A DNA stretch of 64,000 nt. Origin: Minisyncoccota bacterium. GTDB lineage: Bacteria; Patescibacteriota; Minisyncoccia; Phycocordibacterales; Phycocordibacteraceae. The stretch spans positions 356,930-420,929 of the forward strand of contig JAGORR010000001.1 in NCBI GenBank assembly GCA_018062765.1. The letters run 5' to 3'. The position numbers and the translations under genes are program-made. Numbering within the stretch: position 1 is the stretch's first letter; each line of letters opens with the position of its first letter. Shown piece after piece: positions 8,012 through 51,880 of this stretch. A model generated the notes under the pieces. The model ran no database searches, had not been told where the DNA came from, and saw only the letters and a list, made by a program, of their open reading frames with translations.

Positions 8012-8464
8012 ATGAAACGCACAGCCATCTTCGTTTCTGCACTCTTGCTGACTCTTTCAGCGATGTCCGCCCCAGTGTACGCGCAGGACATGAATCTTGG
8101 GGGTGGAGCGACCGGTAACGCTAGTACCAATCTCGGCGGAGGTCCGTCAGGTAACGGTACCAATCTGGGGGGAGGCTCTCAGGGGTGCGGATTCCTTTTG
8201 AATCCACTCGACAACGAGTGCAATAGCGACATGACGCTCAATGATCTCCTTAGCAAAATATTGAACGTCATCGTCCAGATAGGTGTAGTCGTGCTCACTA
8301 TGATGCTCGTCTACGTTGGTTTTCTCTTTGTCACTGCCCAAGGGAACCCGGAAAATCTTTCCAAGGCCCGGAGCGCACTCATATGGACGATAATCGGCGG
8401 CTTCCTCGTGCTTGGCGCGAGCGTCATTGCAGAGGCGGTTAAGTCGACGGTTGAAGCGCTCTGA
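8012..8464 (+). CDS. VirB2/TrbC-like two-helix pilin paralogue 1 (signal peptide, NLGGG x3 repeats)
   Basis: Signal peptide ...APVYA/QD. C-terminal TM1-loop-TM2 module VVLTMMLVYVGFLFVTAQGNPENLSKARSALIWTIIGGFLVLGASVI. Confidence 0.7.
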   Translation: MKRTAIFVSALLLTLSAMSAPVYAQDMNLGGGATGNASTNLGGGPSGNGTNLGGGSQGCGFLLNPLDNECNSDMTLNDLLSKILNVIVQIGVVVLTMMLVYVGFLFVTAQGNPENLSKARSALIWTIIGGFLVLGASVIAEAVKSTVEAL

Positions 8465-22411: not shown

Positions 22412-23368
22412 ATGCGCCGCTTGGCACTTTACCTCCTCGCAGCTTCTCTCATACCGCTTGCCGCGGCGGCACAAGGGCTTCCGTCAGGCTCAATCATCCC
22501 GGACCTCGATGAGGGAGATCAGAACCTGCGCACGTGCGCTGCAGGTTGGAAGGCGGTTCTCATAATATCGGGAGGGTTCCTAGAGCTCGCAATTTACATC
22601 GCGATGCTTATCGCCGTTCTCGTTATCGTCTATGCAGGGATTATATTCCTGTTTAATGCGACAAACCCCGAGAACCTGTCGAAAGGGAAAAAGATTCTTG
22701 GAAACGCGGCGATTGGTCTTCTTATTACGCTTTGCGCATGGCTACTTGTGAATACGGTGCTCACAAGCCTGGGCGCAGGAGACATCGCAAGCCGCACAAG
22801 CGTCATAGGTTCAGGCGGCTCGCTCTGTATCACGATACAACCTCCGCAATCTCAAATACCAACCAGTCAGGAAGTAGCTGCCGGTTTGCCACTGGCACCA
22901 CCTCCTCGAGGTACCGGCTCGTGTGACCCGATTGCTGTGCGCGCAGCCGCAGCGGCCGGTGGGTACCAAATCTCGGAGCGAGAGGCGAACACATTTGCCT
23001 GCCTTGCAGGTCCCGAGAGCTCGTGCGGCGCAAATGTCGATGGTGCGACGACGCCTTCTGGGCAGCGTACGAGTGCAGCGGGTCCGTGGCAGAACATTCT
23101 TGGTTTTAAGGATAAGTGCCACTCACTCAACATCCCCGCCTGTGGCAACTTGCAGTGTCACCAGGCATTTTCAGGCGGAGTGGAGAAGTCTGATCCGGCC
23201 TCGAGAGCTCTCGCTGCCAAGTGTCGTCAGGCACTTGCAAACCTTACGTGCGCTGCCGCCGCAGCCGTGTGTCTTAATAACGCGAGCGGAAACGACTTCA
23301 GCGACTGGACTGCGGATTCGCGCAGCTCGAAACAGAAGAAGTGTATTCGCGACCATGCGGGGCTCTAG
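22412..23368 (+). CDS. pilin-like N-domain fused to a Cys-rich lytic-transglycosylase-like (SLT-like) domain
   Basis: 318 aa. Signal peptide. N-module is IAVLVIVYAGIIFLFNATNPENLSKGKKILGNAAIGLLITLCAWLLVNTVL. The C-domain has SLT-like motif order: PESS, GPWQNIL, LNNASGNDFSDW. Confidence 0.6.
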   Translation: MRRLALYLLAASLIPLAAAAQGLPSGSIIPDLDEGDQNLRTCAAGWKAVLIISGGFLELAIYIAMLIAVLVIVYAGIIFLFNATNPENLSKGKKILGNAAIGLLITLCAWLLVNTVLTSLGAGDIASRTSVIGSGGSLCITIQPPQSQIPTSQEVAAGLPLAPPPRGTGSCDPIAVRAAAAAGGYQISEREANTFACLAGPESSCGANVDGATTPSGQRTSAAGPWQNILGFKDKCHSLNIPACGNLQCHQAFSGGVEKSDPASRALAAKCRQALANLTCAAAAAVCLNNASGNDFSDWTADSRSSKQKKCIRDHAGL

Positions 23369-23927: not shown

Positions 23928-24839
23928 ATGCGACGTACTACGACATTGCTCCTGCTTCTCCCGTTGCTACTTACAGCTATGCCCGCGCATGCGCAGTTCA
24001 CCGAGGGCTGGACCATCGTCCCGGCAGCGTGCCATTCGTGCCCTGCGGCTTGGGTTTGCGTACTTGAGATGCTCAACAATCTGGTGACGCTCATCATGAC
24101 CATCGCGGTCTTAATCGTCGTACTCGTCATCACCTACGCCGGCATCCTGCTTGTGTTTACTGCGACGAACCCCGAGAACAAGAGCAAAGCAAAAAGCATG
24201 CTTATTAATGCTGCGGTAGGTCTCGTCATCGCTCTTGGCGCGTGGCTCATCATCGATAAGGTCCTCGAGTCTTTGGGTGCGGGCGGTATAGACGAGACAA
24301 CGCGCGTTATTGGTACCGGTGGCAGCGCATGTGTTGTTGCTCAGGATCCGATCACTGAGCCGCCTGAGGGAACGGATCCATCGCCTATTACTCCCGGTCC
24401 TGGCGGTGGAGGCAGCGGCGCTAATTGCCCGGTCCCGGCGGCGTCCGGGATGGTGGCATTCCCTGCGGAGGCTACAAGCGGTGAAACTGAATACGCAACA
24501 CCGAGTACGGTCGAGAACTTCCTTGCGATGCGCGCCGCAGCGCTTGCCGATGGAATTGACATTAAGGTGACTGACGGATATCGGTCCGAAGCCGAACAGG
24601 TTCAGTTATGGTATCGCTACAATCAGGACACGAGCCAAGTCGCAAGGCCGTGTACGCTAGGTGGCAGCGGTTCAAACCACAACTCAGGTGTCGCTCTGGA
24701 CCTCACCGTCGGCTGTAGAAAGACAGATAGTTCCTGTGATAGCGCCCAATACCGATGGCTTAAAGCAAATGGTTCTCAGTGGGGCTTCAACAACAATTTG
24801 CCTACCGATACGGTGCACTGGTCACCATCGGGTCGCTAG
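23928..24839 (+). CDS. pilin-like N-domain fused to a peptidase M15 (VanY-type D,D-carboxypeptidase) domain
   Basis: 303 aa. Signal peptide. N-module is IAVLIVVLVITYAGILLVFTATNPENKSKAKSMLINAAVGLVIALGAWLIIDKVL. M15 motifs are VTDGYRSEAEQ, SNHNSGVALDL (SxHxxGxAxD) and DTVHW. Confidence 0.75.
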   Translation: MRRTTTLLLLLPLLLTAMPAHAQFTEGWTIVPAACHSCPAAWVCVLEMLNNLVTLIMTIAVLIVVLVITYAGILLVFTATNPENKSKAKSMLINAAVGLVIALGAWLIIDKVLESLGAGGIDETTRVIGTGGSACVVAQDPITEPPEGTDPSPITPGPGGGGSGANCPVPAASGMVAFPAEATSGETEYATPSTVENFLAMRAAALADGIDIKVTDGYRSEAEQVQLWYRYNQDTSQVARPCTLGGSGSNHNSGVALDLTVGCRKTDSSCDSAQYRWLKANGSQWGFNNNLPTDTVHWSPSGR

Positions 24840-41271: not shown

Positions 41272-41544
41272 ATGGATGACTTTCTCAAGATGGACGTGTT
41301 CTTCGTTGTCGCGACGGGGAGCATGCTCATCCTCAGCGCGTTCGCCGCAATCATCCTTTGGCGCATCGCGCGTATCCTCAAGGAAGTAGAGCGCGTAACC
41401 CGTGAGGTCGCGGCCGAGAGCGAGCTCATCCGCGCGGATATAGAGGACTTCAGAGGTCGCGTTCGCACTGGGAAGGCGACATTCCGCTCATTCATGCGGC
41501 TTATCGGGAACCTCGGGAAACATGGACGAAGCAAGGACGATTAG
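41272..41544 (+). CDS. hypothetical membrane protein (DUF948-like: TM helix + coiled coil)
   Basis: 90 aa. TM helix, then a charged helical region EVERVTREVAAESELIRADIEDF. Confidence 0.5.
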   Translation: MDDFLKMDVFFVVATGSMLILSAFAAIILWRIARILKEVERVTREVAAESELIRADIEDFRGRVRTGKATFRSFMRLIGNLGKHGRSKDD

Positions 41545-41561
41545 CGGCTAAGCATACGCAC

Positions 41562-41960
41562 ATGGATAAGAAAACCACCCAAGCACTTGAGATCGGCGCA
41601 GGCGTCGCGGCCGCAGCGGCGATAGTCGGTGCCGGTTATTACTTCTACGCGAGTCCGGAAGCGAAGAAGCATCGGCAAGCGGCTTCGAAGTGGGCTACCG
41701 GTCTTAAGCGGTCGGTTATCAAGGAAGCGAAGAAGCTCGGGAAGCTCGACGCTAAATCAATCGCTCGCATCGTCGACGATGCGGCTATGGCATACGAGGA
41801 TGCAAGAAACCTCAAGAAGTCGGACCTCACAGCAGCGATGAAGGAGCTGAAGTCGAACTGGAAGCTGGTTGCGGCAGAGGCTGGGGCCGGTGCTACTGGC
41901 GCAGCAAGGACTGCCGTGAAGCGGGCGGCGCCTAGGAAGTCTGCAAAGAAGAGATCATAG
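41562..41960 (+). CDS. hypothetical membrane protein (YtxH-like architecture)
   Basis: 132 aa. N-terminal Gly/Ala TM helix, then a Lys/Ala-rich helical region. Confidence 0.5.
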   Translation: MDKKTTQALEIGAGVAAAAAIVGAGYYFYASPEAKKHRQAASKWATGLKRSVIKEAKKLGKLDAKSIARIVDDAAMAYEDARNLKKSDLTAAMKELKSNWKLVAAEAGAGATGAARTAVKRAAPRKSAKKRS

Positions 41961-41963
41961 CGC

Positions 41964-42296
41964 ATGAACATACTCATCCGTTGGCTGCTGTTCGCTCTCG
42001 CTATCTACGTATCTGCATATGTCGTGCCGGACGTGGAGACGACCGTGCCCGCCGCCTTCGTGCTCGCGATCGTACTGGGCCTCATCAATGCGTTCCTGAA
42101 GCCGATTCTCGTGCTTCTGACGCTCCCCATAACGATCGTCACGCTCGGTCTCTTCGCGCTCGTCCTCAACGCACTCCTCGTCATGCTCGCGGACGCCATC
42201 GTGCCTGGGTTCGAGACAGCTGGATTCATTTCAGCGCTCCTGTTCTCAATCGTGCTTGCGCTGGTCGGCTATGTACTGAAGCGCTTCGATGATTAA
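41964..42296 (+). CDS. phage-holin-4-like (YvlD/DUF360-type) membrane protein
   Basis: 110 aa, four TM helices. INAFLKPILVLLTLPITIVTLGLFALVLNALLVMLA is typical of this family. Confidence 0.7.
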   Translation: MNILIRWLLFALAIYVSAYVVPDVETTVPAAFVLAIVLGLINAFLKPILVLLTLPITIVTLGLFALVLNALLVMLADAIVPGFETAGFISALLFSIVLALVGYVLKRFDD

Positions 42297-42356: not shown

Positions 42357-42902
42357 ATGGTCACTAAGCCACGTGCCTGGGGTGTAAAAGCACCTGCGGC
42401 AGAGCCAGGCACGGATACGAAACTCAAAGTTCTCATTCTGGTAAAGAAGGGGTGCGACGATCTGGCTCGAGCAGTGAAAATGGAGCTCGAACAGTTCGGC
42501 ATCGCATACGGATGCGTGCCCTTGAAGTCCAGCACCGGGTGCGGTGCTGCCTCGAGCATAGTGCGCACCTGCCCGGAGAGCGGTTACGGCGCGATTATCG
42601 TCATCTCAGGCGACTCCGTCCACGAAGCACACATGCTCACGCGAGCGAGCGTCGTGCCCATGTGCCTGGTGCTCAACACCGGAGGCAGGTCAGCTAAGCA
42701 TTGGTTGCGCTCCATGTCGGACCTGATTGGCGTTGAGGTCGGAAGCGGCATACCGGTCTTTCTCTCGGGTGATCCGCATGATGACCTAACCGCAGCAGGG
42801 AACGCGGCGCTCCACGCCGCGAAGTGCCTCGCGCTCCACGACCAAAAGCTGCGCAAACGCATCTACATGCTCATCGTAGAGGGTTCTCCAGCTTCGATAT
42901 GA
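42357..42902 (+). CDS. degenerate PurE/AIR-carboxylase-fold protein
   Basis: 181 aa, aligned by eye to E. coli PurE. GYGAIIVISGDSVHEAHM matches [18 protein letters not shown]. GIPVF...AGNAALHAAKCLALHDQKLRKRI matches GIPVG...AANAALLAAQILATHDKELHQRL. The SAHR and GGAAHLPG motifs are lost. Confidence 0.6.
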   Translation: MVTKPRAWGVKAPAAEPGTDTKLKVLILVKKGCDDLARAVKMELEQFGIAYGCVPLKSSTGCGAASSIVRTCPESGYGAIIVISGDSVHEAHMLTRASVVPMCLVLNTGGRSAKHWLRSMSDLIGVEVGSGIPVFLSGDPHDDLTAAGNAALHAAKCLALHDQKLRKRIYMLIVEGSPASI

Positions 42903-42989
42903 CATCGCGCGCCGCACGCTCTGTGCGGCGCGTTCCTTTATCCCTCATCGCGAGGCATGGTGCTCTACGCGTAGCCTATACTAGAGCGC

Positions 42990-45731
42990 ATGGAGGGAAC
43001 ACGGCAGCTTACGACTCCCGAGGAGGAGCTTGCCTACTTGCGTGCGCAAGTAGAGGAGAAAGAACGCGAGCTCGCGGGGCGCGCGCAGGAAGCACCGCGC
43101 AACACTCTCGTGCACGAGCGTATCCTTCATCACCGGCGCGAGATGCCAGAGACGGTGCTCGCTCCGTCCTACAAGCTACCTGAAGCTGAAGTGGAAGGCA
43201 TCGCGCTGGATCTCGATCCGGATGATAACGACGCAACGATGGCGGAACTTCAGGGAATCATGGAGGAGAAGGGTATCAAGAATGCGCTCTCGGTCCTTGA
43301 AAAGCTCCGGAATCCGCATCTCGATGACGACTTCCATCGATTCCTGGTGCAGTACGTCGTCGCTGGAATGCAGGTGAAGGGGCTCGGGGAACGGGAACCA
43401 GCATGGAAGGCGCTCCACATGACTCTCTACGAGGTCATCCTTCCGGAGCCCGGCAAGGACTCGGACGCGCGAGAGAAGACCTTGAAGGAACTCATCTCCT
43501 CGATGGAGCAGTTCTATGCAGGCATGCTCTCGGTGGGGGATGCGAGCGCGAGCGAGCCGGGCTATTTCTCGATGGAGCTCGCTGTTCCCGCTAATCGTCC
43601 GGAGCTCCTTTTCTATGTCGCTGTGCCTAACGGCAAGCGCGCGCTCTTTGAGCAGCAGCTCTTGGCAACCTTTCCGAACGCGAACATTCGTCCGCAGCCG
43701 AACGATTACAACATATTCAGCGAGGATGGCGTTGCCGTAGGCGCCTCTGCGACGCTAGCTGACAAAGGCGTGCTTCCTCTCAAGGATTATGCTGATTTCG
43801 ACTACGACCCGTTGAATACGGTTCTGGGTGCCTTCGCGAAGATCGAGAAGGCGAGCGAGGGAGCGGCGCTCCAAGTCATCATCGAGCGCGATACGCACCA
43901 CCTGGAACATTACCGCCGGATACTCGGAGCGCTCCGTCGCGGCGAATCGAAGGATCGTGCGCTCTCGATGCCGGAGACATTCGTGGGCGAGGCCGCGCGC
44001 GAGATCGGGTCAGCGCTCTTCCCGGGCTCACGCAAATGGGAGAACGAAGTTGAGAAGAGAGCCGAAAGGAAAGATGGGAACCAGGCTTTGATTGAGCAGA
44101 TAGAGAAGAAGATCGCAGCTCCCATCGTAAAGACGACGCTCCGTCTCATGGTGTCCTCGCCGACCCACACCCGCGCGGAGTCAGGGCTCGCGGACCTTGA
44201 GGCGGCATTCAATCAGTTCACCAACACCGTAGGCAACAAAATCAACTGGAATCGGTTCTCAGGCACCAAGGTACAGAGCCTTTTCCATGCATTCTCTTAC
44301 CGTTTGCCGGCGAAGGACGCGATACCGCTTTCTCTTCGAGAGGTCACGAGCCTCTACCACTTCCCGCCCGAGGGCATCAGCTCTACGCCGCAACTCCGGC
44401 AGTCGCGCTTCACTGCGGCCGCTGCGCCCTTGGATCTCCCTGACTCGGGGACGTATCTCGGGGATAACGAGTTCCGCGGACGGAAGACTGCGGCATTCCT
44501 GTCGCCGGAGGACCGCATGCGGCACCTCTATGTCGTCGGACAGACGGGAACCGGTAAGTCGGTATTCATGAGGAATCTCGCCATACAGGACATCAAGGCA
44601 GGGAACGGCGTCTGCTTCATCGACCCCCACGGGAACGACATCCTCGATATCCTCGCGGCTGTACCTCCCGAGAGATACGAGGATGTCATCTATTTCGATC
44701 CGGCGAACCTGGCGCGTCCGTTCGGCCTCAACTTGCTTGAATACGATGCGAGCCGCCCAGAGCAGAAAACCTTCATCGTTAATGAGATCCTCGCGATATT
44801 CCGCCGCCTCTACGGGGACGTGCCGGAGTCGATGGGTCCTGCGTTCGAGCAGTACTTCCGCAACTCAACCCTCCTGGTGATGGAGGACCCGGCATCGGGC
44901 TCGACCTTACTCGATATCGCGCGAGTCCTTTCGAACAAGGAGTTCCGCGACCTGAAACTCTCGCGAAGTAATAATCCGGTCATAAACCAGTTCTGGAACG
45001 AGATAGCGACGAAGGCTGAAGGAGAGGCATCGCTTCAAAACATCGTTCCGTACATCACTAACAAGTTCGATGACTTCACCGCGAACGACTTCATGCGGCC
45101 AATCGTCGGGCAGCAGGAATCCTCGTTCAAATTCCGTGAGGTGATGGACAACAAGAAGATACTCCTTGTGAACCTCTCTAAAGGAAGGCTCGGGGAACGA
45201 AACGCCAACCTCCTGGGCCTCATCCTCGTCGGGAAGATATTCATGGCTGCGCTCTCTCGTGCAGATAACCCGAGGGCAGACTACGCGCCGTTCTACCTCT
45301 ATATCGACGAATTCCAGAACATAACTACGGACTCCATACCGGGAATCCTCTCCGAGGCTCGCAAATACCGGCTTTCGCTTACCATGGCGCACCAGTTTCT
45401 GGCGCAGGTGGATGAGAAGGTGCGGGATGCCGTGTTCGGGAACGTCGGCTCCATGGCCGTGTTCCGCGTCGGCGAGGAAGATGGCGAGTACTTCGAGAAG
45501 CAGTTCGCGCCGGTGTTCTCCGCGCTCGATTTCGTGAACATAGAGAATTACAACGCGTACGTCAGACTCCTTGCGCGCGGCGTGCCGCAGAAGCCATTCA
45601 ATATAAAGACGCCGCCACCGGCCGCCACGAACCCTGCGCAGGTGGACGACCTCAGAGAGCTCTCAGCACTCGTCTACGGCCGCGACCGTACACAGGTGGA
45701 AAACCTTATCAGAAGCAGGTACATGTCATAA
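42990..45731 (+). CDS. TraD/VirD4-like FtsK-HerA-superfamily ATPase (type IV coupling-protein-like) with a large soluble N-terminal domain
   Basis: 913 aa. Walker A VVGQTGTGKS. Walker B FYLYIDEFQN. SEARKYRLSLTMAHQFLAQ is typical of the TraD/TraG C-terminal region. I found no N-terminal TM helix. Confidence 0.7.
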   Translation: MEGTRQLTTPEEELAYLRAQVEEKERELAGRAQEAPRNTLVHERILHHRREMPETVLAPSYKLPEAEVEGIALDLDPDDNDATMAELQGIMEEKGIKNALSVLEKLRNPHLDDDFHRFLVQYVVAGMQVKGLGEREPAWKALHMTLYEVILPEPGKDSDAREKTLKELISSMEQFYAGMLSVGDASASEPGYFSMELAVPANRPELLFYVAVPNGKRALFEQQLLATFPNANIRPQPNDYNIFSEDGVAVGASATLADKGVLPLKDYADFDYDPLNTVLGAFAKIEKASEGAALQVIIERDTHHLEHYRRILGALRRGESKDRALSMPETFVGEAAREIGSALFPGSRKWENEVEKRAERKDGNQALIEQIEKKIAAPIVKTTLRLMVSSPTHTRAESGLADLEAAFNQFTNTVGNKINWNRFSGTKVQSLFHAFSYRLPAKDAIPLSLREVTSLYHFPPEGISSTPQLRQSRFTAAAAPLDLPDSGTYLGDNEFRGRKTAAFLSPEDRMRHLYVVGQTGTGKSVFMRNLAIQDIKAGNGVCFIDPHGNDILDILAAVPPERYEDVIYFDPANLARPFGLNLLEYDASRPEQKTFIVNEILAIFRRLYGDVPESMGPAFEQYFRNSTLLVMEDPASGSTLLDIARVLSNKEFRDLKLSRSNNPVINQFWNEIATKAEGEASLQNIVPYITNKFDDFTANDFMRPIVGQQESSFKFREVMDNKKILLVNLSKGRLGERNANLLGLILVGKIFMAALSRADNPRADYAPFYLYIDEFQNITTDSIPGILSEARKYRLSLTMAHQFLAQVDEKVRDAVFGNVGSMAVFRVGEEDGEYFEKQFAPVFSALDFVNIENYNAYVRLLARGVPQKPFNIKTPPPAATNPAQVDDLRELSALVYGRDRTQVENLIRSRYMS

Positions 45732-45743
45732 TCACAGCTATAT

Positions 45744-48700
45744 ATGGCAGGCGAGGGTCCAGGAAACGGTAATGGCAGCAAGCTCGCGGAGCAGCTTGCG
45801 AAACTCGTCGAGCAGAAAGGCCTTCAAGGGATGGCAGTCGCTGATGCTGGTGAGGAACAGGTGCCTGCTCAAGTTGCCACCCCCGCTGTTGTTGAACAGC
45901 ATGAAGTGCCCGTTTCCAGCTACGATGAGGCAGCGGTCTCGAAAGCGCACAAGCGATTCACCGCGCTCATAAGGGGGCTTGAGAAACACCCCGAGATACA
46001 GGTACGTCCTGATGCGCTTGCGAGCCTGAAGACGGCATTCGATGCTATGGGTAAGGCAAAAGGCAGGCTGAAGGCTATGGATGACGCGAATGAAGTGAAT
46101 CACGAACGCCGTAAGAAACAGTTGGATATCATCCAGGCATCGTTTTCCGTGATATTCGGAGAAATCGGAAACGAAGTATCCGAAGGGCTGCGCCCGGTCG
46201 ATGGGACTGCGACAGGAAGGAACGAGGCCACTTCGCGCGACGAAGTGGATACGCGCTACTATCCGCTCGCAGATGAGATTTTCGCAAAGGGGTATAACCC
46301 GAATGAGCTCGAATCGTGGCGAAACATCGCTAAGCGAGTCAAAAGGCCGATTCCAGGAAAGCCTTACAACCCGGGGATATCGCTTACTGATCGCGAGATA
46401 CGCGCGGTTCGCGCCGAACTTGCCAAACTCGAGCAGAAGGACCCGATAGTGCTTCCGACTAAAGCTGCGTCAGAACCAGCACCGCAAGTGCCGCGCGAGC
46501 GGGCACGAAAGCCAAAGCGATCGGAAAAGGATCGCGAGTCACGCGCGATTCGCGATGAACCAAGCATATACGACTCACCTGGCCCGATGCGCCGTACCGA
46601 CATGGACCGCATTGATCCTGCGGTCGTATCAGGGGTAGTTGGAACGTTTGACACGAATGCTCCTGATACGGTTACGGAGCCTTCTGGAGCGGATGCCGCC
46701 TCTGAACTCGACGTCGAGCCTGCTATTCACGACAGCACGCCGAGGCTCCCTGCGGATAAGTTCAAGGATGCGACCCCGAAGAGCGTACGCGAGAGTCTGC
46801 GCCGTTCGATACTGAGTATCAAAGAGCTGCCGCCTACGGAAATGCCAGCCGGGGCTATCGATACCTTGCCGCCTGACCTCGGGTTGAGAACCACTACTCC
46901 CGCAAGAGCGGAAGCGCTGAGGTCCGTAGTCACCCCGCCCGGATCGATAGACACGCTTCCTCCGGTCATCGATACTGCGCCGCAAGCATCTGCAGCCCCA
47001 GAGCCTGTGCTGGTTGCGGAGGTAGATCCGGACGCCGCTGATGCGGCACTTGCGCACGCCGTGTTCCCGAGTGCGTCAACGGAAGGTGTAGCAAATCTTC
47101 CCGCAGTGGTGAATTCGGAAGCTACGCCTACATGGCAGCCGCTCTCGGAGCAAGGTCTCACGCAAGAAGAACTTGTGCATCGGCGTGCTGAGCGCCGTGT
47201 GCAGATTGGCGTCGAGGCTGGCCTTACACAGGAGCTTGGCGACATGTACAACGCACGCGAAGCGTACCTCACTGCGTACCGGGCATTTTATGCGAATAAC
47301 AACCTGGCTGCGCGCGCTGCAGTACAGGCAACGAATTCCACCGAGTGGCAGAACTTGAAGCGACTTGAGGCTGCCTCGGCGACAGCAAGCCTTGCATACC
47401 AGCAAGCACTCGAGCGTTCCGCGACGGAACGGCTAACGGCTAACGCGCCTGAGCGCGAGGCGCTGCTACGTGCAAAGGGAGAGGCCAGGTACCTACTTCT
47501 TGTCGGCGTCGGCTGGAATGCGCCGCGGTACGAAGACGGCCGGCTGATGTCTAAAGAGGACTACGTGAACCAGTACATGACGCAGTACCAGGGCCGCGTA
47601 CTCGATCGCTACATGTCTACTATTGCGTGGCGCGAAGTCACAGCCGGGAACGAGAACGCACGCATCGAGACTCGTGCGGAGGCGCTAGGAGCAAAACAAC
47701 GCAACGTCTTCGATAGGATGCGCTCGTTGGTCCAGGCAACGAACCAGGGACTCGAACGGACGCTTACTCCGACGGGCGCTCGCGCATTCCGTATCGTCGC
47801 AGCTGCGGGCGTCGGTACCGTGCTTGGCGGGTGGGCAGCAGGTGCGATGCGTGGTGCCTCGGTTATCGCAGGTATGCTCACTGGCTCCACCGCGGGTGCG
47901 GCAGCAGGCTCCTTGTTCCAGCGTCTCGTGGGTGCGCGCCGGGCAGCTGCCGTTGATACTGTGCGACACTCGCGTATCACAAGTGCCGCAGACTTAACAG
48001 CGGCAGCTGCTGCGTTCCGCAAGGGTGACGCTGCGCAAATAGCAGCTACGCGAAGGCGTTGGGAGATGGGCGTCGCGCTCGGCGTCGCCTTCCTTACGGC
48101 ACGTTCTATGCCGGGACTAGAGCCCGTCGTTACTAGCTCCCTTAGCGATTTGAGGCGCATCGGCGGAGAGATTATGGGAACAGGCGAGAGCGCCGGCGCG
48201 ACAGCGGCCGTACCCACTGGTGGCGAGTCAGCGTCGCCTTCGTCAGCGGTCACGGGAGGCGCTGGCGGCAGTGAAGGCCAGTCTGCGCCTGTCGCCGGGG
48301 GTGAGAGCGGTACGGGAAGCGGAGCACCAAGAGCAGGCGGTGAAGGCTCCGGGGGCGCAGCTCCGCTCGACTCATCCGTGCCGCCACCTGCGAACAATCC
48401 AGGCCCTGCGGGGAGTCCCTTCGGACGCATTCCGGTACCGACGGATTCCGTTCCGCAGGCGGACGCTATCGGGGGATTCGCTCGTGAGTCGGCGATAATC
48501 TCGGGCGGTAACGGAGGTGACGCCGTGTCGAGTGAAGGACTCGACGATATGCGCGCAGTTGCGGCCGAAGTGCGCGGCACCTCGACAGAATACGTGGCAC
48601 GTTCAGGTGACGGCGGCATTAAGCTCGTCGAAGGTCTCCAGCAGCAGCTTGCGCGCGAGGGCATCACTGAGACGACACCAGGCATTTCAGCTATGACGCG

Positions 48701-49547
48701 TGAGATAGCATCGGCTGATACGAATGCGGAAGCCGAGGCAGTCGCGAAGAAATACGGACTCTACAAGCCAGGGGTCACCGATGAGAGTGCAGCAATCGGT
48801 AAGGAAGCTCGAATCAGGATAGACGGAGAGAAGCTCGTGCTTACGGACGCAAAAGGCGAGGCAGTTTTCATAGACGAGAAGAATCCATATAGCGGAAAGA
48901 TGTTTGATAGCAATCCACCACCTCCTGTTCGTGAGATTCCACCGGAAACAAGGGCTTCCGGTGAACGCGTAGCTCCAAGTGAGGCGCCACCACCTGCTCA
49001 AAGAGAAGTAGTCTCGAGCGCAGGACAAGAGCAGATAGTTCCAAGAGAGGAGCCTCCTCGAGTAGCTGGTCAAACGAAGTCCTATTGGGACATGACAGAA
49101 GTCGAGAAGACGCAGCACCTGAACCGACTCTCGATAGCGGACGCGCGACAGGCACGTCTCGATTGGGAGGACTACGCACGTAAGTATGACGCGTATCTCG
49201 AAGAGGTGGCACGCGAGAGGGGAGTTCCTGCAGCCGCGGTTGTGGGAAGTGCTCCCGTCGCGTCCCCCGCTGCCATCGAACGCGATCTTCAACCGGTACG
49301 TGTAGACGCCTCACCAACGCCTGCGTCAGAACCTGCGCCTTCGGCGGCAAAACCCGCACCAGAGCCAGTTCGTCCTGTACCGTCTCCGGAAGGACCACCG
49401 CGCGATACCATTTCTACCGACGAAGCGATCCGTCAATTCGGCGATCCGCAGGCAGCGGCGTCACGAGGAGCAACGCCGACGCCAGCAGCGAGCGAGTCGA
49501 TAACCACGGACGAGGCTATTAACCAGCTTCGTGCGCAGAAGAAGTAA
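45744..49547 (+). CDS. giant low-complexity Ala/Pro/Gly-rich protein with central TM cluster
   Basis: 1267-aa ORF starting 12 nt after the ATPase stop. Coiled-coil N-terminus. IDTLPP repeats. Hydrophobic Gly/Ala segments (FRIVAAAGVGTVLGGWAAGA...). Pro-rich tail with repeated (S/T)TDEAI(R/N)Q. Confidence 0.7.
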   Translation: MAGEGPGNGNGSKLAEQLAKLVEQKGLQGMAVADAGEEQVPAQVATPAVVEQHEVPVSSYDEAAVSKAHKRFTALIRGLEKHPEIQVRPDALASLKTAFDAMGKAKGRLKAMDDANEVNHERRKKQLDIIQASFSVIFGEIGNEVSEGLRPVDGTATGRNEATSRDEVDTRYYPLADEIFAKGYNPNELESWRNIAKRVKRPIPGKPYNPGISLTDREIRAVRAELAKLEQKDPIVLPTKAASEPAPQVPRERARKPKRSEKDRESRAIRDEPSIYDSPGPMRRTDMDRIDPAVVSGVVGTFDTNAPDTVTEPSGADAASELDVEPAIHDSTPRLPADKFKDATPKSVRESLRRSILSIKELPPTEMPAGAIDTLPPDLGLRTTTPARAEALRSVVTPPGSIDTLPPVIDTAPQASAAPEPVLVAEVDPDAADAALAHAVFPSASTEGVANLPAVVNSEATPTWQPLSEQGLTQEELVHRRAERRVQIGVEAGLTQELGDMYNAREAYLTAYRAFYANNNLAARAAVQATNSTEWQNLKRLEAASATASLAYQQALERSATERLTANAPEREALLRAKGEARYLLLVGVGWNAPRYEDGRLMSKEDYVNQYMTQYQGRVLDRYMSTIAWREVTAGNENARIETRAEALGAKQRNVFDRMRSLVQATNQGLERTLTPTGARAFRIVAAAGVGTVLGGWAAGAMRGASVIAGMLTGSTAGAAAGSLFQRLVGARRAAAVDTVRHSRITSAADLTAAAAAFRKGDAAQIAATRRRWEMGVALGVAFLTARSMPGLEPVVTSSLSDLRRIGGEIMGTGESAGATAAVPTGGESASPSSAVTGGAGGSEGQSAPVAGGESGTGSGAPRAGGEGSGGAAPLDSSVPPPANNPGPAGSPFGRIPVPTDSVPQADAIGGFARESAIISGGNGGDAVSSEGLDDMRAVAAEVRGTSTEYVARSGDGGIKLVEGLQQQLAREGITETTPGISAMTREIASADTNAEAEAVAKKYGLYKPGVTDESAAIGKEARIRIDGEKLVLTDAKGEAVFIDEKNPYSGKMFDSNPPPPVREIPPETRASGERVAPSEAPPPAQREVVSSAGQEQIVPREEPPRVAGQTKSYWDMTEVEKTQHLNRLSIADARQARLDWEDYARKYDAYLEEVARERGVPAAAVVGSAPVASPAAIERDLQPVRVDASPTPASEPAPSAAKPAPEPVRPVPSPEGPPRDTISTDEAIRQFGDPQAAASRGATPTPAASESITTDEAINQLRAQKK

Positions 49548-49574: not shown

Positions 49575-49859
49575 ATGGATACTCACACAAACGGAGCACT
49601 CGATATCGGCTCGCTTCCACCCGATGAGCAGGAGGAGGTTCTCCTTACTGCCGGAGACCTTATCATGAAGGAATCCCTAGTGCGGCTCGCGGAGCAGATG
49701 GATGATGCGACCGCAACCGAATTCGATGCGCTCCTCACTAAGGGCGCGAGCGAAGAAGAGATAGCAGCCTTCATACAGACTCGTGTGCCTGGTGCGGACG
49801 TTGCTATGAAGGGCTCCGTTGACGATGTGCAGGGTGCTATACTCGGGGACAAGCCTTAA
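49575..49859 (+). CDS. hypothetical small acidic protein
   Basis: 94 aa, acidic. Same strand as the giant ORF and close behind it. Confidence 0.5.
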   Translation: MDTHTNGALDIGSLPPDEQEEVLLTAGDLIMKESLVRLAEQMDDATATEFDALLTKGASEEEIAAFIQTRVPGADVAMKGSVDDVQGAILGDKP

Positions 49860-49871
49860 TACACATAGCGT

Positions 49872-50363
49872 ATGAATGTCACTGGTACCGGAGTAGCTGT
49901 CGCCCTCGCGGTCGTCTTTGCTCTCGGATTCCTGTTCTTCGGCCCCGCCATACTTACTCCGTCAGCAGTCATTTCTCCCCCTGTCACTATGAATTCAGAA
50001 GAAAACCTAGCAGCTTACGCAGATGTGCTGCCGACCGAGCTCACCGTAACCGATCTGAGTGTCGGGGAAGGCGCTGAGGCTGCGAGCGGCGACCTTATCT
50101 CCGTGAATTACATAGGAGCGTTCCCGGATAACACGATATTCGATGCGTCCGCAAGCCACGGCGGCCCCTTCACGTTCCGTCTTGGCGTGGATTCAGTCAT
50201 CCAAGGATGGCAGAAGGGACTCGTCGGGATGAAGGAGGGAGGTACGCGTATCCTTATCATTCCACCCCATGAGGGATACGGACCTGACGGATACGGCTCC
50301 ATTCCGCCAAACGCGACGCTCATCTTCAAGGTCGAACTCGTAAAAGTTGAAAAAGCTCAGTAG
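49872..50363 (+). CDS. FKBP-type peptidyl-prolyl cis-trans isomerase (membrane-anchored)
   Basis: 163 aa. FKBP core is VNYIGAF.DNTIFDAS......FRLG...VIQGWQKGLVGMKEGGTRILIIPP..GYG. Confidence 0.9.
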   Translation: MNVTGTGVAVALAVVFALGFLFFGPAILTPSAVISPPVTMNSEENLAAYADVLPTELTVTDLSVGEGAEAASGDLISVNYIGAFPDNTIFDASASHGGPFTFRLGVDSVIQGWQKGLVGMKEGGTRILIIPPHEGYGPDGYGSIPPNATLIFKVELVKVEKAQ

Positions 50364-50386: not shown

Positions 50387-50414
50387 AAGCGCCGGAGATT
50401 TCTCTCCGGCGCTT
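50387..50414. terminator. bidirectional terminator hairpin
   Basis: AAGCGCCGGAGA-tttc-TCTCCGGCGCTT. Confidence 0.65.
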
Positions 50415-50446: not shown

Positions 50447-51175
50447 TCAGTCCCGGATGGGATCCTGATACCGCTGTTCGACCTGGACTAGGCGGCCGTT
50501 CGCTTCGACGTAGCCGACGAAGGACGGGCACCATTCTCCCATCGCGTCGAGCCAGATGTCGTTCTGGGCGAACCAGAACCGCGACATGGCGAGCCACATG
50601 CTGTTCTGCATGTCGTACCCATCCAACATCGTGTTGTACATCATCTGGTTGGAGAGCGACGGAATCACACTGCCCAAGAGGTAGGTGGCGCCATAGTCGG
50701 CACCAAACGCACTCCAGGCCTGGATTCCGCCGGCAACCACCGAGCCGATGGTCACGATGTTGCTCGTGTCGCGCTGGGACTTGGCCTTCAGCTGGAAGGC
50801 CTCGATGTGATCCGCCTGACGGCGGAGCTCAGCGAGCCACAGGCGCTGCAACTCGATGCGGCCACAGGCGCGCACCACCTGCGGGATGTGATACCGCAGG
50901 TCGCGTTCGCCGAACTGTTCTATCGCGTAGCGGGTCGACAGGAAGGTCTGACGACCCAAGTCGTCAGTCTTTTCGGTCAGAGGCGCGATGTTCGGGGGCA
51001 GATTGCCCTCGTAGTACATGCCACGACCATCGAGGTTCGCATGGATCGACGCGTTCTGGACGCGCGCTTCGAAGTCAGCCGTCCGTTCCAGTGGTGCGAT
51101 TCCCTGACGGGAAGCGCATGCGCTGAGCGGAACGACGATCGCCATGGCGAGTGCCACGGCACGGAAGATACGCAT
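50447..51175 (-). CDS. hypothetical lipoprotein (long paralogue)
   Basis: 242 aa. Lipobox VVPLSAC. Shares N- and C-terminal blocks with the 51370..51729 gene. Confidence 0.65.
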   Translation of the reverse strand: MRIFRAVALAMAIVVPLSACASRQGIAPLERTADFEARVQNASIHANLDGRGMYYEGNLPPNIAPLTEKTDDLGRQTFLSTRYAIEQFGERDLRYHIPQVVRACGRIELQRLWLAELRRQADHIEAFQLKAKSQRDTSNIVTIGSVVAGGIQAWSAFGADYGATYLLGSVIPSLSNQMMYNTMLDGYDMQNSMWLAMSRFWFAQNDIWLDAMGEWCPSFVGYVEANGRLVQVEQRYQDPIRD

Positions 51176-51369: not shown

Positions 51370-51729
51370 TTATTCGTCGACGATGGCGCCGTGCTTGTCG
51401 ATCCACATGGTGAAGAGCGAGCACCAGGCGGCCATCTCGCCGAGCTGCGTGTGCTGCCTGTCGCCGAACCAGAACCGGTTCAGCTAATGCCAATGCGCGT
51501 TCTGTGCGCATTCCTGCTTCATCGCGGCGACGCGGATGCGGACGGCGTTCTCGCCGAACGTGGCGCTCGCGGCATCGGTTCGGACGAAGAGCAGGCGGCC
51601 GAGGTCATCGGTCTGCACGGTCGCCGGCAGGATGTTCGGCGGCAACGGGCCTTCATAGGTCGGAGCCGCCGAAGAACAGCCGATCAGCATGAGCGCACAG
51701 GCGGCGCTTAACAACAGTTTGCGGGCCAT
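51370..51729 (-). pseudogene. short lipoprotein paralogue interrupted by an in-frame TAG (stop at 51484..51486)
   Basis: ATG 51729 follows GAAGGAGG. Lipobox LMLIGCSS. After ..AQNAHWH the TAG is followed in the same frame by LNRFWFGDRQHTQLGEMAAWCSLF... This aligns without gaps to QNSMWLAMSRFWFAQNDIWLDAMGEWCPSF of the long paralogue. Confidence 0.6.
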
Positions 51730-51880
51730 AAGGCCTCCTTCAGGCTTGGGTTGCCGGGCACTTGTGCCCGTGGTCTTAGAACGTAAAACCGTGAGTGATA
51801 ATGAACTTATTACTGAATATGTCAAGTCTTCATGGCAGTCGCGGCTTGCCGTTTACGCCCGTCGCCCGTAGGCTTTTTAG

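What the first reader, a model, noticed from the sequence alone, without database searches (positions are those of the whole stretch)
42990..45731. TraD/VirD4-like ATPase with a 500-aa soluble N-terminal domain and no membrane anchor
The C-terminal half has these features:
- Walker A: VVGQTGTGKS
- Walker B: FYLYIDEFQN
- SEARKYRLSLTMAHQFLAQ signature, typical of TraD/TraG/VirD4 coupling proteins

Canonical coupling proteins begin with two TM helices. This protein instead begins with a charged coiled coil and about 500 aa of unassigned soluble sequence.

It is not encoded next to the pilin genes, a relaxase, or VirB4. It forms an apparent operon with a degenerate PurE-like gene upstream and a 1267-aa low-complexity protein downstream.
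Basis: partly seen in the sequence, partly recalled or inferred. Interest (0 to 1): 0.55.

Follow-up and report, generated by a model that had tools for sequence, protein, structure and literature searches.

The report
Anchorless coupling ATPase fused to partner
This gene from a Paceibacteria (CPR) chromosome encodes a conjugation-type "coupling" ATPase whose membrane anchor has been replaced by a fused partner protein and whose unassigned N-terminal half folds like the N-domain of the sister ATPase VirB4, which gives testable partners for the abundant orphan coupling-protein genes of these bacteria.

Summary
The ORF is real: 42990-45731, 913 aa, with all three quoted motifs and no hydrophobic segment. 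The VirD4-like reading is right for the C-terminal half only.

The "unassigned 500 aa" resolves into two parts:
- **aa 7-131** is homologous to a ~135-aa helical protein. In a sister subfamily this protein is a separate gene directly upstream of an ATPase that starts with one TM helix. Here the partner is fused and the TM helix is deleted.

The same DUF8128 + ATPase architecture occurs in coupling proteins of Bacillus and actinomycete conjugative plasmids and in Bacillus phage G.

The gene is chromosomal, evolves slowly and belongs to a very large Patescibacteria family. It is not co-transcribed with the PurE-like gene. It is co-transcribed with a variable 3-helix membrane-like protein, a DUF5663 protein and an FKBP. 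The big-protein/DUF5663 pair also accompanies the membrane-anchored form.

Best reading: a partner-docked translocation or coupling ATPase. Whether it serves the patescibacterial type IV secretion system or an autonomous module remains open. I rate it a new variant of a known kind, interest 0.6.

The parts
42907..42933 (+). Terminator-like hairpin between the PurE-like gene (stop 42902) and the ATPase start. It marks the 5' boundary of the transcription unit.
   Evidence: 12-bp stem with 9 G-C pairs followed by a T-rich tail. This is a consensus scan only.
42990..45731 (+). Gene for the 913-aa DUF8128/T4CP-family ATPase (fused, TM-less form).
   Evidence: ORF. A 100%-identical database protein comes from a Candidatus Pacebacteria MAG. 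More than 1545 homologues were found, and the best 120 are 66-100% identical.
43008..43382 (+). aa 7-131: helical adaptor domain, homologous to a stand-alone ~135-aa protein encoded directly upstream of the TM-anchored sister ATPases. It carries the motifs LAPSYKL (aa 57-63) and DDDFHRFLVQY (aa 112-122).
43407..44489 (+). aa ~140-500: DUF8128 core with a VirB4-N-terminal-domain-like alpha/beta fold.
44502..45629 (+). aa ~505-880: FtsK/HerA-superfamily P-loop ATPase domain of the T4CP (VirD4/TrwB) type. Walker A at nt 44532-44561, Walker B at 45291-45320, SEARKYRLSLTMAHQ motif at 45351-45407.
   Evidence: Pfam DUF87 and TraG-D_C, and NCBIfam VirD4-like CD1115 across aa 507-831. TrwB is the best PDB sequence match. 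Fold matches to TrwB, Cagbeta, DotL and HerA. Motif coordinates.
45744..49547 (+). 1267-aa variable, low-complexity protein. Its conserved core is aa 471-870 (nt 47154-48353). The core contains three Gly/Ala-rich hydrophobic helices at aa ~681-790 (nt 47784-48113). It is a candidate membrane partner.
   Evidence: Starts 12 nt after the ATPase stop. No Pfam hit. The core is shared with large ORFs in 20 fused-form and 2 TM-form loci. A central hydrophobic segment is present in nearly all large downstream ORFs. Alignment of the helices.
49575..49859 (+). 94-aa acidic DUF5663 protein. It forms a fixed gene pair with the big protein.
   Evidence: Pfam DUF5663: E 0.012 here and clear hits in relatives. 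DUF5663-like ORFs occur in 40 of 82 fused-form loci and 20 of 84 TM-form loci. 54 of 60 follow a >=250-aa ORF.
49872..50363 (+). 163-aa FKBP-type peptidyl-prolyl isomerase with an N-terminal hydrophobic anchor or signal. It is the last gene of the unit.
   Evidence: FKBP_C E 6e-29. KD up to 2.54 at aa 1-30. Conserved downstream in 43 of 81 loci.
50387..50414 (.). Palindromic terminator-like hairpin after the FKBP stop. It marks the 3' boundary of the unit and is shared with the convergent gene.
   Evidence: 12-bp stem with 8 G-C pairs. This is a consensus scan only.

Best explanation
The gene encodes a T4CP-family (VirD4/TrwB-like) P-loop ATPase built like VirB4: an N-terminal VirB4-NTD-like platform (DUF8128) followed by the motor domain.

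In this Paceibacteria lineage the family's single N-terminal TM helix has been deleted. A small helical partner protein, elsewhere encoded just upstream, has been fused in its place.

I propose the following mechanism.
- The protein works as a ring ATPase recruited to the cytoplasmic face of the membrane by protein partners rather than by its own anchor.
- The likeliest dock is the co-transcribed large protein with three hydrophobic helices, possibly with DUF5663 as a small adaptor.
- There it couples ATP hydrolysis to handing a macromolecular substrate to a membrane channel, most likely the chromosomal MPF-FATA-derived T4SS of Patescibacteria.

Shown: the ORF and motifs, the absence of a TM segment, the domain homologies, the fusion, the operon and module conservation, and plasmid relatives sitting in T4SS/relaxase clusters.

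Inferred: hexamer formation, docking on the big protein, a link to the T4SS, and the nature of the substrate.
For: - **Motor domain.** By sequence it is closest to T4CPs and by fold to TrwB, Cagbeta, DotL and HerA. Catalytic motifs are invariant.
- **N-domain.** Its only strong structural match is VirB4/TrwK. VirB4 is held at the membrane by a partner, VirB3 (paper PMC12102498).
- **Anchored sister form.** The ~785-aa sister subfamily has a strong N-terminal TM helix in 76 of 84 loci. A ~135-aa gene abuts its start (63 of 80 loci), and this gene is homologous to aa 7-131 here.
- **Plasmid relatives.** The same DUF8128 + ATPase architecture is found in plasmid proteins placed as the coupling protein next to a replication-relaxation relaxase and a VirB4-like ATPase. 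Examples are B. subtilis NZ_CP154917 and Embleya NZ_CP108778.
- **Operon.** Spacings are 12, 27 and 12 nt, bounded by hairpins.
- **Module.** The big-protein/DUF5663 pair travels with both ATPase forms, in different gene orders.
- **Genome.** The window carries VirB2-like pilin genes.
- **Published survey.** These are the only T4CP homologues found in Patescibacteria.
Against: - No T4SS component lies within 18 kb here. In 166 related loci only one held a pilin-like ORF and one a VirB4-like ORF.
- Published counts give T4CP homologues in 2,918 of 3,035 genomes, VirB4 in 2,417, and only 148 of 5,713 t4cp genes near virB4. The t4cp of Ca. S. epibionticum was not essential although the T4SS was. 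With about two copies per genome, redundancy could explain that.
- Relaxases are nearly absent from the phylum.
- Fold assignments rest on AlphaFold2 models. The motor domain has pLDDT of only 50-70.
- No sequence-level link to the VirB4 NTD was found.
- The TM status of the big protein's helices is marginal by hydropathy (KD 1.5-2.2).
- There are no experimental data.
Confidence: 0.4

Rival explanations
1. Exapted, autonomous module. The ATPase, its partner domain, the big 3-helix membrane protein and DUF5663 form their own translocation or assembly machine and do not use the VirB4 T4SS. Possible roles are export or insertion of the rapidly evolving big surface protein, or another envelope function.
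For: - T4CP homologues are more widespread than VirB4 and are almost never adjacent to it. The authors raise exaptation themselves.
- The partner, DUF5663 and big-core families are absent from plasmid loci that carry DUF8128-type T4CPs. They co-vary with the ATPase in Patescibacteria.
- Conservation is at housekeeping level. Identity across the same loci is 61-69% for the ATPase, 62-80% for TGT and 42-59% for FKBP.
- A membrane-anchored or exported FKBP foldase sits in the operon.
Against: - No channel-forming component has been identified.
- The big protein is missing in some loci where FKBP directly follows the ATPase (L004, L006, L039, L044).
- In the 49-55% identity clade no conserved neighbour was seen.
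- Homologous plasmid proteins clearly sit in T4SS clusters.
Confidence: 0.33
2. DNA-uptake motor working with type IV pili or competence. The ATPase pulls or processes DNA brought in by type IV pili, analogous in logic to the archaeal Ced system, which pairs a VirB4/HerA-like ATPase with pili.
For: - In the clade closest to L082 the partner and TM-anchored ATPase genes lie at the 3' end of a type IV pilus cluster: response regulator, pilin, PilB, PilC and two Laminin_G_3 proteins. This holds in 6 of 7 loci with enough upstream DNA.
- Laminin_G_3 is the second commonest upstream neighbour family.
- T4CPs are DNA-dependent motors (established knowledge of TrwB).
Against: - The adjacency is confined to one clade and may be inherited gene order.
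- No type IV pilus gene was found among the ORFs scanned in this window.
- No type IV pilus association was seen in the fused-form loci, although that scan did not include pilus-gene queries.
- No ComEC or ComEA linkage was seen.
Confidence: 0.1
3. Cytoplasmic HerA/FtsK-like DNA translocase for repair or chromosome segregation, unrelated to secretion.
For: - It is soluble.
- Pfam DUF87 (HerA central domain) matches, and HerA structures appear among fold hits.
- There is conserved synteny with UvrB, with UvrA and UvrC nearby.
- PADLOC gives a weak mad8/HerA match to the ATPase domain.
Against: - T4CPs score better than HerA by both sequence and fold.
- The N-domain is VirB4-like, not a HAS barrel.
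- No NurA or other nuclease partner is present.
- The sister subfamily is membrane-anchored.
- TGT and other genes separate it from uvrB, and terminator-like hairpins bound the unit.
Confidence: 0.07
4. Classification rival: it is really a highly divergent VirB4 paralogue, the T4SS energising ATPase, not a coupling protein.
For: - It has a two-domain VirB4 architecture.
- Full-length TrwK/VirB4 chains are the best Foldseek hits (E 7e-10, about 930 aligned columns).
- It has no TM anchor, as in VirB4.
Against: - The family profile finds TrwB and DotL but no VirB4 in the PDB.
- Plasmid members co-occur with a separate VirB4-like ATPase and sit next to the relaxase, which is the T4CP position.
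- Patescibacteria have their own monophyletic VirB4 clade.
Confidence: 0.05

Closest known systems
VirD4/TrwB/DotL-type type IV coupling proteins (T4CP)
   Same: The P-loop motor domain is shared. This covers Walker A/B, a TraG-D_C region and a helical insertion. These are the best PDB sequence matches (TrwB E 1.9e-8, DotL 4.9e-5), and fold matches agree.
   Different: - It lacks the two N-terminal TM helices.
- It carries a ~360-aa VirB4-NTD-like domain plus a fused helical adaptor ahead of the motor.
- It is chromosomal, with no relaxase or Mpf genes nearby.
VirB4 (TrwK of R388)
   Same: - The overall architecture is shared: an alpha/beta N-terminal domain followed by a RecA-like motor, with no TM segment of its own.
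- VirB4 is tethered to the membrane by a small partner, VirB3.
   Different: - No sequence similarity to VirB4 is detectable in either domain.
- It is not adjacent to a VirB3-like gene.
- The small partner fused here is soluble and helical, not a 2-TM VirB3-like protein.
DUF8128-type coupling proteins of monoderm mobile elements: B. subtilis plasmid NZ_CP154917 (885 aa), Embleya plasmid NZ_CP108778 (812 aa), Bacillus phage G gp156
   Same: - They share the DUF8128 N-domain plus T4CP motor. DUF8128 HMM scores are 59.7 bits for the B. subtilis protein and 40.2 bits for the Embleya protein.
- phrog_5156 covers aa 144-907.
- Phage G gp156 covers 92% of the query region.
- The Bacillus protein also lacks a TM segment.
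   Different: - The two plasmid proteins sit in conjugation clusters with a relaxase and a VirB4-like ATPase; the context of phage G gp156 was not examined.
- The plasmid loci lack the partner domain, DUF5663 and the big protein.
- Identity in the motor domain is only about 29-30% for the two plasmid proteins; phage G gp156 is 22% identical across both domains.
TM-anchored patescibacterial DUF8128 ATPase with a separate ~135-aa partner (split form; e.g. P0276 in Candidatus Jorgensenbacteria)
   Same: - It shares 41.7% identity across the DUF8128 and motor domains.
- Its partner is homologous to aa 7-131 here.
- DUF5663 and big-protein genes lie nearby in part of the loci.
   Different: - It has one N-terminal TM helix.
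- The partner is a separate gene.
- It occupies a different chromosomal position (TIM, FtsW, YceG, RpoBC).
- In one clade it abuts a type IV pilus cluster.
TraJ of pIP501, a T4CP without its own TM domain that is proposed to be anchored by TraI
   Same: It is a precedent for a monoderm coupling protein that depends on another protein for membrane attachment (review PMC12857230).
   Different: - I did not compare the sequences.
- TraI is a 2-TM protein, whereas the candidate dock here is a >1000-aa 3-helix protein.
Cagbeta-CagZ (H. pylori), a T4CP regulated by a small helical protein
   Same: It is a precedent for a small all-helical subunit bound to a T4CP. Cagbeta (8dol) is among the fold hits. 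The role of CagZ is taken from the PDB entry title and my own knowledge.
   Different: - No homology between CagZ and the partner domain was tested.
- CagZ is not fused to Cagbeta.

Membership tests
Type IV coupling protein (VirD4/TraD/TraG/TrwB) | FtsK/HerA-superfamily nucleotide-binding domain that scores best against T4CPs | tested here: met
   - TrwB E 1.9e-8 and DotL 4.9e-5 with the family profile; no VirB4 at E<=1.
- NCBIfam VirD4-like CD1115 matches across aa 507-831, although far below its curated cut-off.
- Pfam TraG-D_C scores 23.4 bits against a cut-off of 22.
Type IV coupling protein (VirD4/TraD/TraG/TrwB) | N-terminal transmembrane domain (usually two helices) | tested here: not met
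   No KD19 window reaches 1.6. Sister subfamily members have one TM helix.
Type IV coupling protein (VirD4/TraD/TraG/TrwB) | All-alpha domain inserted in the NBD | tested here: inconclusive
   The model shows helices at aa 591-720 between the core strands, but pLDDT there is 50-70. TM-score to TrwB, normalised to the target, is 0.43-0.46.
Type IV coupling protein (VirD4/TraD/TraG/TrwB) | Encoded with a relaxase and/or Mpf (VirB4, VirB6) genes | tested here: not met
   - None was found in the 64-kb window.
- One of 166 related loci holds a pilin-like ORF and one holds a VirB4-like ORF.
- The feature is met for plasmid homologues.
Type IV coupling protein (VirD4/TraD/TraG/TrwB) | Binds the relaxosome or substrate and docks on the T4SS channel | not testable with these tools
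   Requires biochemistry or genetics.
VirB4 | VirB4-type N-terminal domain fold | tested here: met
   [not shown]
VirB4 | Sequence membership (CagE_TrbE_VirB or VirB4 profiles) | tested here: not met
   VirB4 models match only the P-loop, at 14 bits. No Pfam VirB4 hit. No VirB4 in the PDB profile searches.
VirB4 | Adjacent virB3 and other Mpf genes | tested here: not met
   Neighbours are a holin-like protein, a PurE-like protein, the big protein, DUF5663 and FKBP.
DUF8128 (PF26449)-containing ATPases | Match to PF26449 | tested here: met
   PF26449 is precomputed on P0001, which is 100% identical, and on most homologues. It is named DUF8128. The local Pfam copy did not report this family for the protein. 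My own DUF8128-core HMM scores 447.8 bits.
HerA (non-secretion helicase/translocase) | HAS-barrel N-domain and a NurA or other nuclease partner | tested here: not met
   The N-domain matches VirB4, not HerA. No nuclease gene is in the unit. HerA scores are weaker than T4CP scores.
FtsK/SpoIIIE | Multi-TM N-domain, FtsK_SpoIIIE motor and gamma domain | tested here: not met
   FtsK_SpoIIIE scores 16.8 bits against a cut-off of 24, at the P-loop only. No TM segment.

The most novel reading that the evidence does not exclude
DUF8128-type ATPases are a surviving intermediate between VirB4 and VirD4: a coupling-type motor that still carries the VirB4 N-domain. In Patescibacteria they have been domesticated, together with three lineage-specific partners (the ~135-aa helical adaptor, DUF5663 and a fast-evolving 3-helix membrane protein). 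The result would be a near-universal translocation machine that works independently of the VirB4 T4SS, for example for macromolecule uptake or surface-protein export in the episymbiotic lifestyle.
Probability: 0.25. Interest if true: 0.8.

Novelty: new variant of a known kind. Interest (0 to 1): 0.6.

Why it matters
**An open question gains testable leads.** A 2025 survey found 5,713 VirD4-like genes in 2,918 of 3,035 Patescibacteria genomes. Almost none are next to virB4, and their role was left open (PMC12102498). No paper in the library mentions DUF8128 or PF26449.

This analysis gives those orphan genes an anatomy and candidate partners that can be tested directly:
- a VirB4-like N-domain;
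- a partner protein that is either separate or fused, which amounts to a Rosetta-stone prediction of physical interaction;
- an accompanying DUF5663 plus large membrane-protein pair.

**Evolutionary angle.** The same N-domain occurs in plasmid coupling proteins of Bacillus and actinomycetes. This bears on how T4CPs arose from a VirB4-like ancestor.

**Caveat.** If the protein is simply the T4SS coupling protein, the result is a useful annotation refinement and not a new system.

Tried and rejected
- **Narrow profile for the fusion test.** A profile of aa 1-140 built from close homologues scored only 11.4 bits against the small upstream proteins. I replaced it with the reverse test, an HMM of 63 upstream ORFs searched against the fused forms, which was decisive.
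- **Sequence link to VirB4.** A DUF8128-core profile against PDB sequences gave nothing. The VirB4 link is therefore structural only.
- **AlphaFold-database fold search.** The library was not available.
- **R388 trwK for profile comparison.** The accession is not in the collections.
- **PurE-like gene as an operon partner.** Rejected.
- **Type IV pilus linkage as a general feature.** Rejected; it is confined to one clade.
- **Defence-system reading.** There is only a domain-level mad8/HerA similarity, and neither PADLOC nor PHROGs matched the neighbours tested.
- **pLS20-type T4CP as the plasmid relative.** Rejected, because pLS20 p48 has two N-terminal TM helices.
- **Coexistence of fused and TM forms in one genome.** This could not be tested with +-8-10 kb flanks.
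- **Single family for all big downstream proteins.** They fall into several sequence clusters, so only part of them is demonstrably homologous.
Full report
**Observation.** The window holds one ATG-initiated ORF at 42990-45731 (+) of 913 aa.
- The three quoted motifs are present: Walker A at aa 515-524, Walker B at aa 768-777 and SEARKYRLSLTMAHQFLAQ at aa 788-806. They are invariant or nearly so in an alignment of 55 homologues.
- No 19-residue Kyte-Doolittle window reaches 1.6. The maximum, 1.57, lies inside the ATPase core.
- The local Pfam copy finds nothing in aa 1-508.
- The gene is real. An identical protein is on record from a Candidatus Pacebacteria MAG on a 638-kb contig. At least 1545 homologues were scored, and the best 120 are 862-956 aa long and 66-100% identical.

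**Setting.** The window is ordinary chromosome. It encodes GyrA, ClpB, TopA, RelA/SpoT, IF-2, ParB, SerRS, Dus, a short DNA polymerase III gamma/tau-like protein (by inspection; not run through Pfam), Tgt, UvrB, UvrA, UvrC, Ddl and eight tRNAs.
- It carries three scattered VirB2-like T4SS pilin genes.
- It has no VirB4, relaxase or second ATPase of this kind.
- A scan of one genome per GTDB species found relatives in at least 568 genomes. All named ones are Patescibacteria/Paceibacteria: Kaiser-, Nomura-, Taylor- and Zambryskiibacteria and others.
- Across the same loci the ATPase is 61-69% identical, TGT 62-80%, UvrB 73-83% and FKBP 42-59%. It therefore evolves like a housekeeping gene, not like mobile-element cargo.

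**C-terminal half.**
- Pfam gives DUF87 and TraG-D_C just above their cut-offs.
- NCBIfam's only end-to-end match is a VirD4-like family (aa 507-831), far below its cut-off.
- A profile of the family finds TrwB (E 1.9e-8) and DotL (4.9e-5) in the PDB, then HerA weakly, and no VirB4.
- The full-length model (pLDDT 71.5) matches TrwB, Cagbeta, DotL and HerA over this half.

**N-terminal half, part 1 (aa ~140-500).**
- The identical database protein and most relatives carry precomputed PF26449, named DUF8128. No paper in the library mentions it.
- All 14 best Foldseek hits with this model are TrwK chains.
- Because the query contains no ATPase domain, the match is to the VirB4 N-terminal domain.
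- With the full-length model, full-length TrwK chains are the best hits, with about 930 aligned columns and E 7e-10.
- There is no sequence-level signal to VirB4. Homology is therefore an inference from fold.

**N-terminal half, part 2 (aa 7-131).**
- A search of 1.8 billion cluster representatives with aa 1-500 found 921 clusters. They include ~790-840-aa proteins that match only aa 140-500 and begin with a hydrophobic helix.
- This sister subfamily is very large, with 6515 hits among the scored candidates. Members come from Jorgensenbacteria, Paceibacterota and others.
- In 84 loci, 76 ATPases have an N-terminal 19-residue window with KD >= 1.8.
- Directly upstream, usually within a few nucleotides on the same strand, lies a ~125-150-aa helical protein with LPSYL and DAFHDALvDkL motifs. 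63 of 80 such ORFs form one family.
- The family has no Pfam match. At least 150 stand-alone database clusters exist, all "hypothetical".
- An HMM built only from these ORFs hits aa 7-131 of the window protein end to end (41.8 bits, E 8.4e-10 for a nominal database of 1e5). It also hits the N-termini of 70 of 72 fused-form proteins.
- The TM-form ATPase then aligns with the window protein at 41.7% identity, from about aa 115 onward.
- Only about 10 residues separate the end of the partner homology from the first conserved DUF8128 strand. The TM helix has been excised.

The window protein is thus a fusion of partner and ATPase that has lost its membrane anchor. P0216 (823 aa) is a shorter fused variant.

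**Transcription unit and module.**
- A terminator-like hairpin at 42907-42933 lies between the PurE-like gene and the ATPase.
- The PurE-like gene is absent from 81 related loci. It is present only in a 97% relative, and a 79% relative has PurC at that position. It is not a partner.
- Downstream spacings are 12, 27 and 12 nt to the 1267-aa protein, the 94-aa DUF5663 protein and an FKBP with a hydrophobic N-terminus. A palindromic hairpin follows at 50387-50414.
- In the 61-69% identity clade a large ORF of 453-1267 aa follows the ATPase in most loci. It is absent in L004, L006, L039 and L044, and replaced by a short 114-aa ORF in L037.
- These large proteins are very divergent and fall into several sequence clusters.
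  - The window's core (aa 471-870) is shared with 20 fused-form loci and 2 TM-form loci.
  - The core contains three Gly/Ala-rich hydrophobic helices flanked by basic residues.
  - Nearly all of these large ORFs have such a central segment.
- DUF5663-like ORFs occur near the ATPase in 40 of 82 fused-form loci and 20 of 84 TM-form loci. 54 of 60 directly follow a >=250-aa ORF.
- In several TM-form loci the order is big protein, DUF5663, partner, ATPase. Here it is partner::ATPase, big protein, DUF5663. The same components in two gene orders argue for functional linkage.
- In the 49-55% identity clade I saw no conserved neighbour.

**Outside Patescibacteria.** The motor domain has 27-35% identical relatives on 373 plasmids of Streptomyces, Bacillus, haloarchaea and Sulfolobus.
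- In a B. subtilis plasmid, an 885-aa TM-less protein lies next to a replication-relaxation relaxase, conjugal transfer genes and an 847-aa VirB4-like ATPase.
- In an Embleya plasmid, an 812-aa protein lies between a VirB4-like ATPase (preceded by PrgI/VirB3) and a relaxase.
- Both match my DUF8128-core HMM, at 59.7 and 40.2 bits.
- PHROGs family 5156 covers aa 144-907. Bacillus phage G gp156 covers both domains.
- The two plasmid loci lack the partner, DUF5663 and the big-core protein.
- pLS20's T4CP is the canonical 2-TM type.

DUF8128 + T4CP is therefore an unrecognised architecture of some monoderm coupling proteins. It fits the published view that the patescibacterial T4SS derives from monoderm MPF-FATA systems.

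**Mechanism.**

*Shown:* an intact, conserved T4CP-type motor; a VirB4-like N-domain; loss of the anchor with fusion of a partner; co-transcription with a putative membrane protein, DUF5663 and FKBP.

*Inferred:* the protein forms a ring ATPase that reaches the membrane through partners. This would parallel VirB4 through VirB3, or TraJ of pIP501 through TraI. At the membrane it would feed a substrate to a channel.

My confidence in each reading:

| Reading | Confidence |
|---|---|
| Coupling to the chromosomal T4SS | 0.40 |
| Autonomous, exapted module | 0.33 |
| DNA-uptake motor with type IV pili | 0.10 |
| HerA/FtsK-like repair or segregation motor | 0.07 |
| Divergent VirB4 paralogue | 0.05 |

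- *For T4SS coupling:* plasmid relatives occupy the T4CP position, no other T4CP candidate is known in the phylum, and pilin genes are present in this genome.
- *For an autonomous module:* published counts give T4CP homologues in 2,918 genomes, VirB4 in 2,417, and 148 of 5,713 t4cp genes near virB4. The t4cp was non-essential in Ca. S. epibionticum. My own scan found T4SS parts next to the gene in at most 2 of 166 loci. The partner set is lineage-specific. About two copies per genome could, however, explain the non-essentiality.
- *Type IV pili:* the link rests on one clade's gene order.
- *HerA-like:* this reading is disfavoured by the N-domain fold, the anchored sister form and the lack of a nuclease partner.

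**Novelty.**
- Already known: the existence and abundance of orphan T4CP homologues in Patescibacteria (PMC12102498), and the Pfam DUF8128 entry.
- I found nothing in the searched library on the following: the VirB4-like nature of DUF8128, its presence in plasmid T4CPs, the split/fused partner with loss of the anchor, and the DUF5663/big-protein module.

I rate it a new variant of a known kind.

**Limits.**
- Fold claims depend on AlphaFold2 models from an alignment of 55 fairly similar sequences.
- TM calls are hydropathy only.
- Terminator calls are consensus matches.
- Synteny counts include related genomes and truncated contigs.
- E-values from my local HMM searches use nominal database sizes.

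Noticed in passing
window 8012-8464, 22412-23368, 23928-24839: Three scattered VirB2-like T4SS pilin genes (PF18895). The third is fused to a VanY D-Ala-D-Ala carboxypeptidase domain. No VirB4 or VirB6 is in the window.
   Followed up: partly
window 42357-42902; L171 5513-6436; L172 2803-3348: The orphan, sub-threshold PurE-like gene sits where a 79%-identical relative has a SAICAR synthetase (PurC). These may be remnants of a purE-purC cluster in a lineage thought to lack purine synthesis.
   Followed up: partly
window 50447-51175 (-) and 51484-51825 (-): Two neighbouring ORFs with lipoprotein-like N-termini share an 'LPPNIxPxTxxTDDLGR' stretch. They look like paralogues, and neither has a Pfam match.
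   Followed up: no
window 41272-42296: A DUF948-like ORF (90 aa), a 132-aa ORF with a hydrophobic N-terminus and a 4-TMS Phage_holin_4_2 protein form a trio. Part or all of it recurs upstream of the ATPase in many fused-form loci.
   Followed up: no
L082, L084, L085, L086, L091, L092 (upstream of 8001): In one clade of the TM-anchored sister subfamily, the partner and ATPase genes close a type IV pilus cluster. The cluster comprises a response regulator, a pilin, PilB, PilC and two Laminin_G_3 proteins.
   Followed up: partly
TM-form loci L083, L085, L091, L102, L105, L106, L110, L111 and others: PMT_2/PMT-type glycosyltransferases are the commonest neighbour family at positions -4 to -2 (14 of 131 ORFs); the loci listed here have a large opposite-strand ORF at those positions, but which ORFs carry the hit was not checked.
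   Followed up: no
[not shown]
   Followed up: no
window 42990-45731, aa 509-858: PADLOC model mad8 (MADS defence system) matches the motor domain at 43 bits. The stand-alone 395-aa Sulfitobacter plasmid homologue sits among recombinase and transposase genes. T4CP-like motors therefore also occur outside secretion contexts.
   Followed up: no
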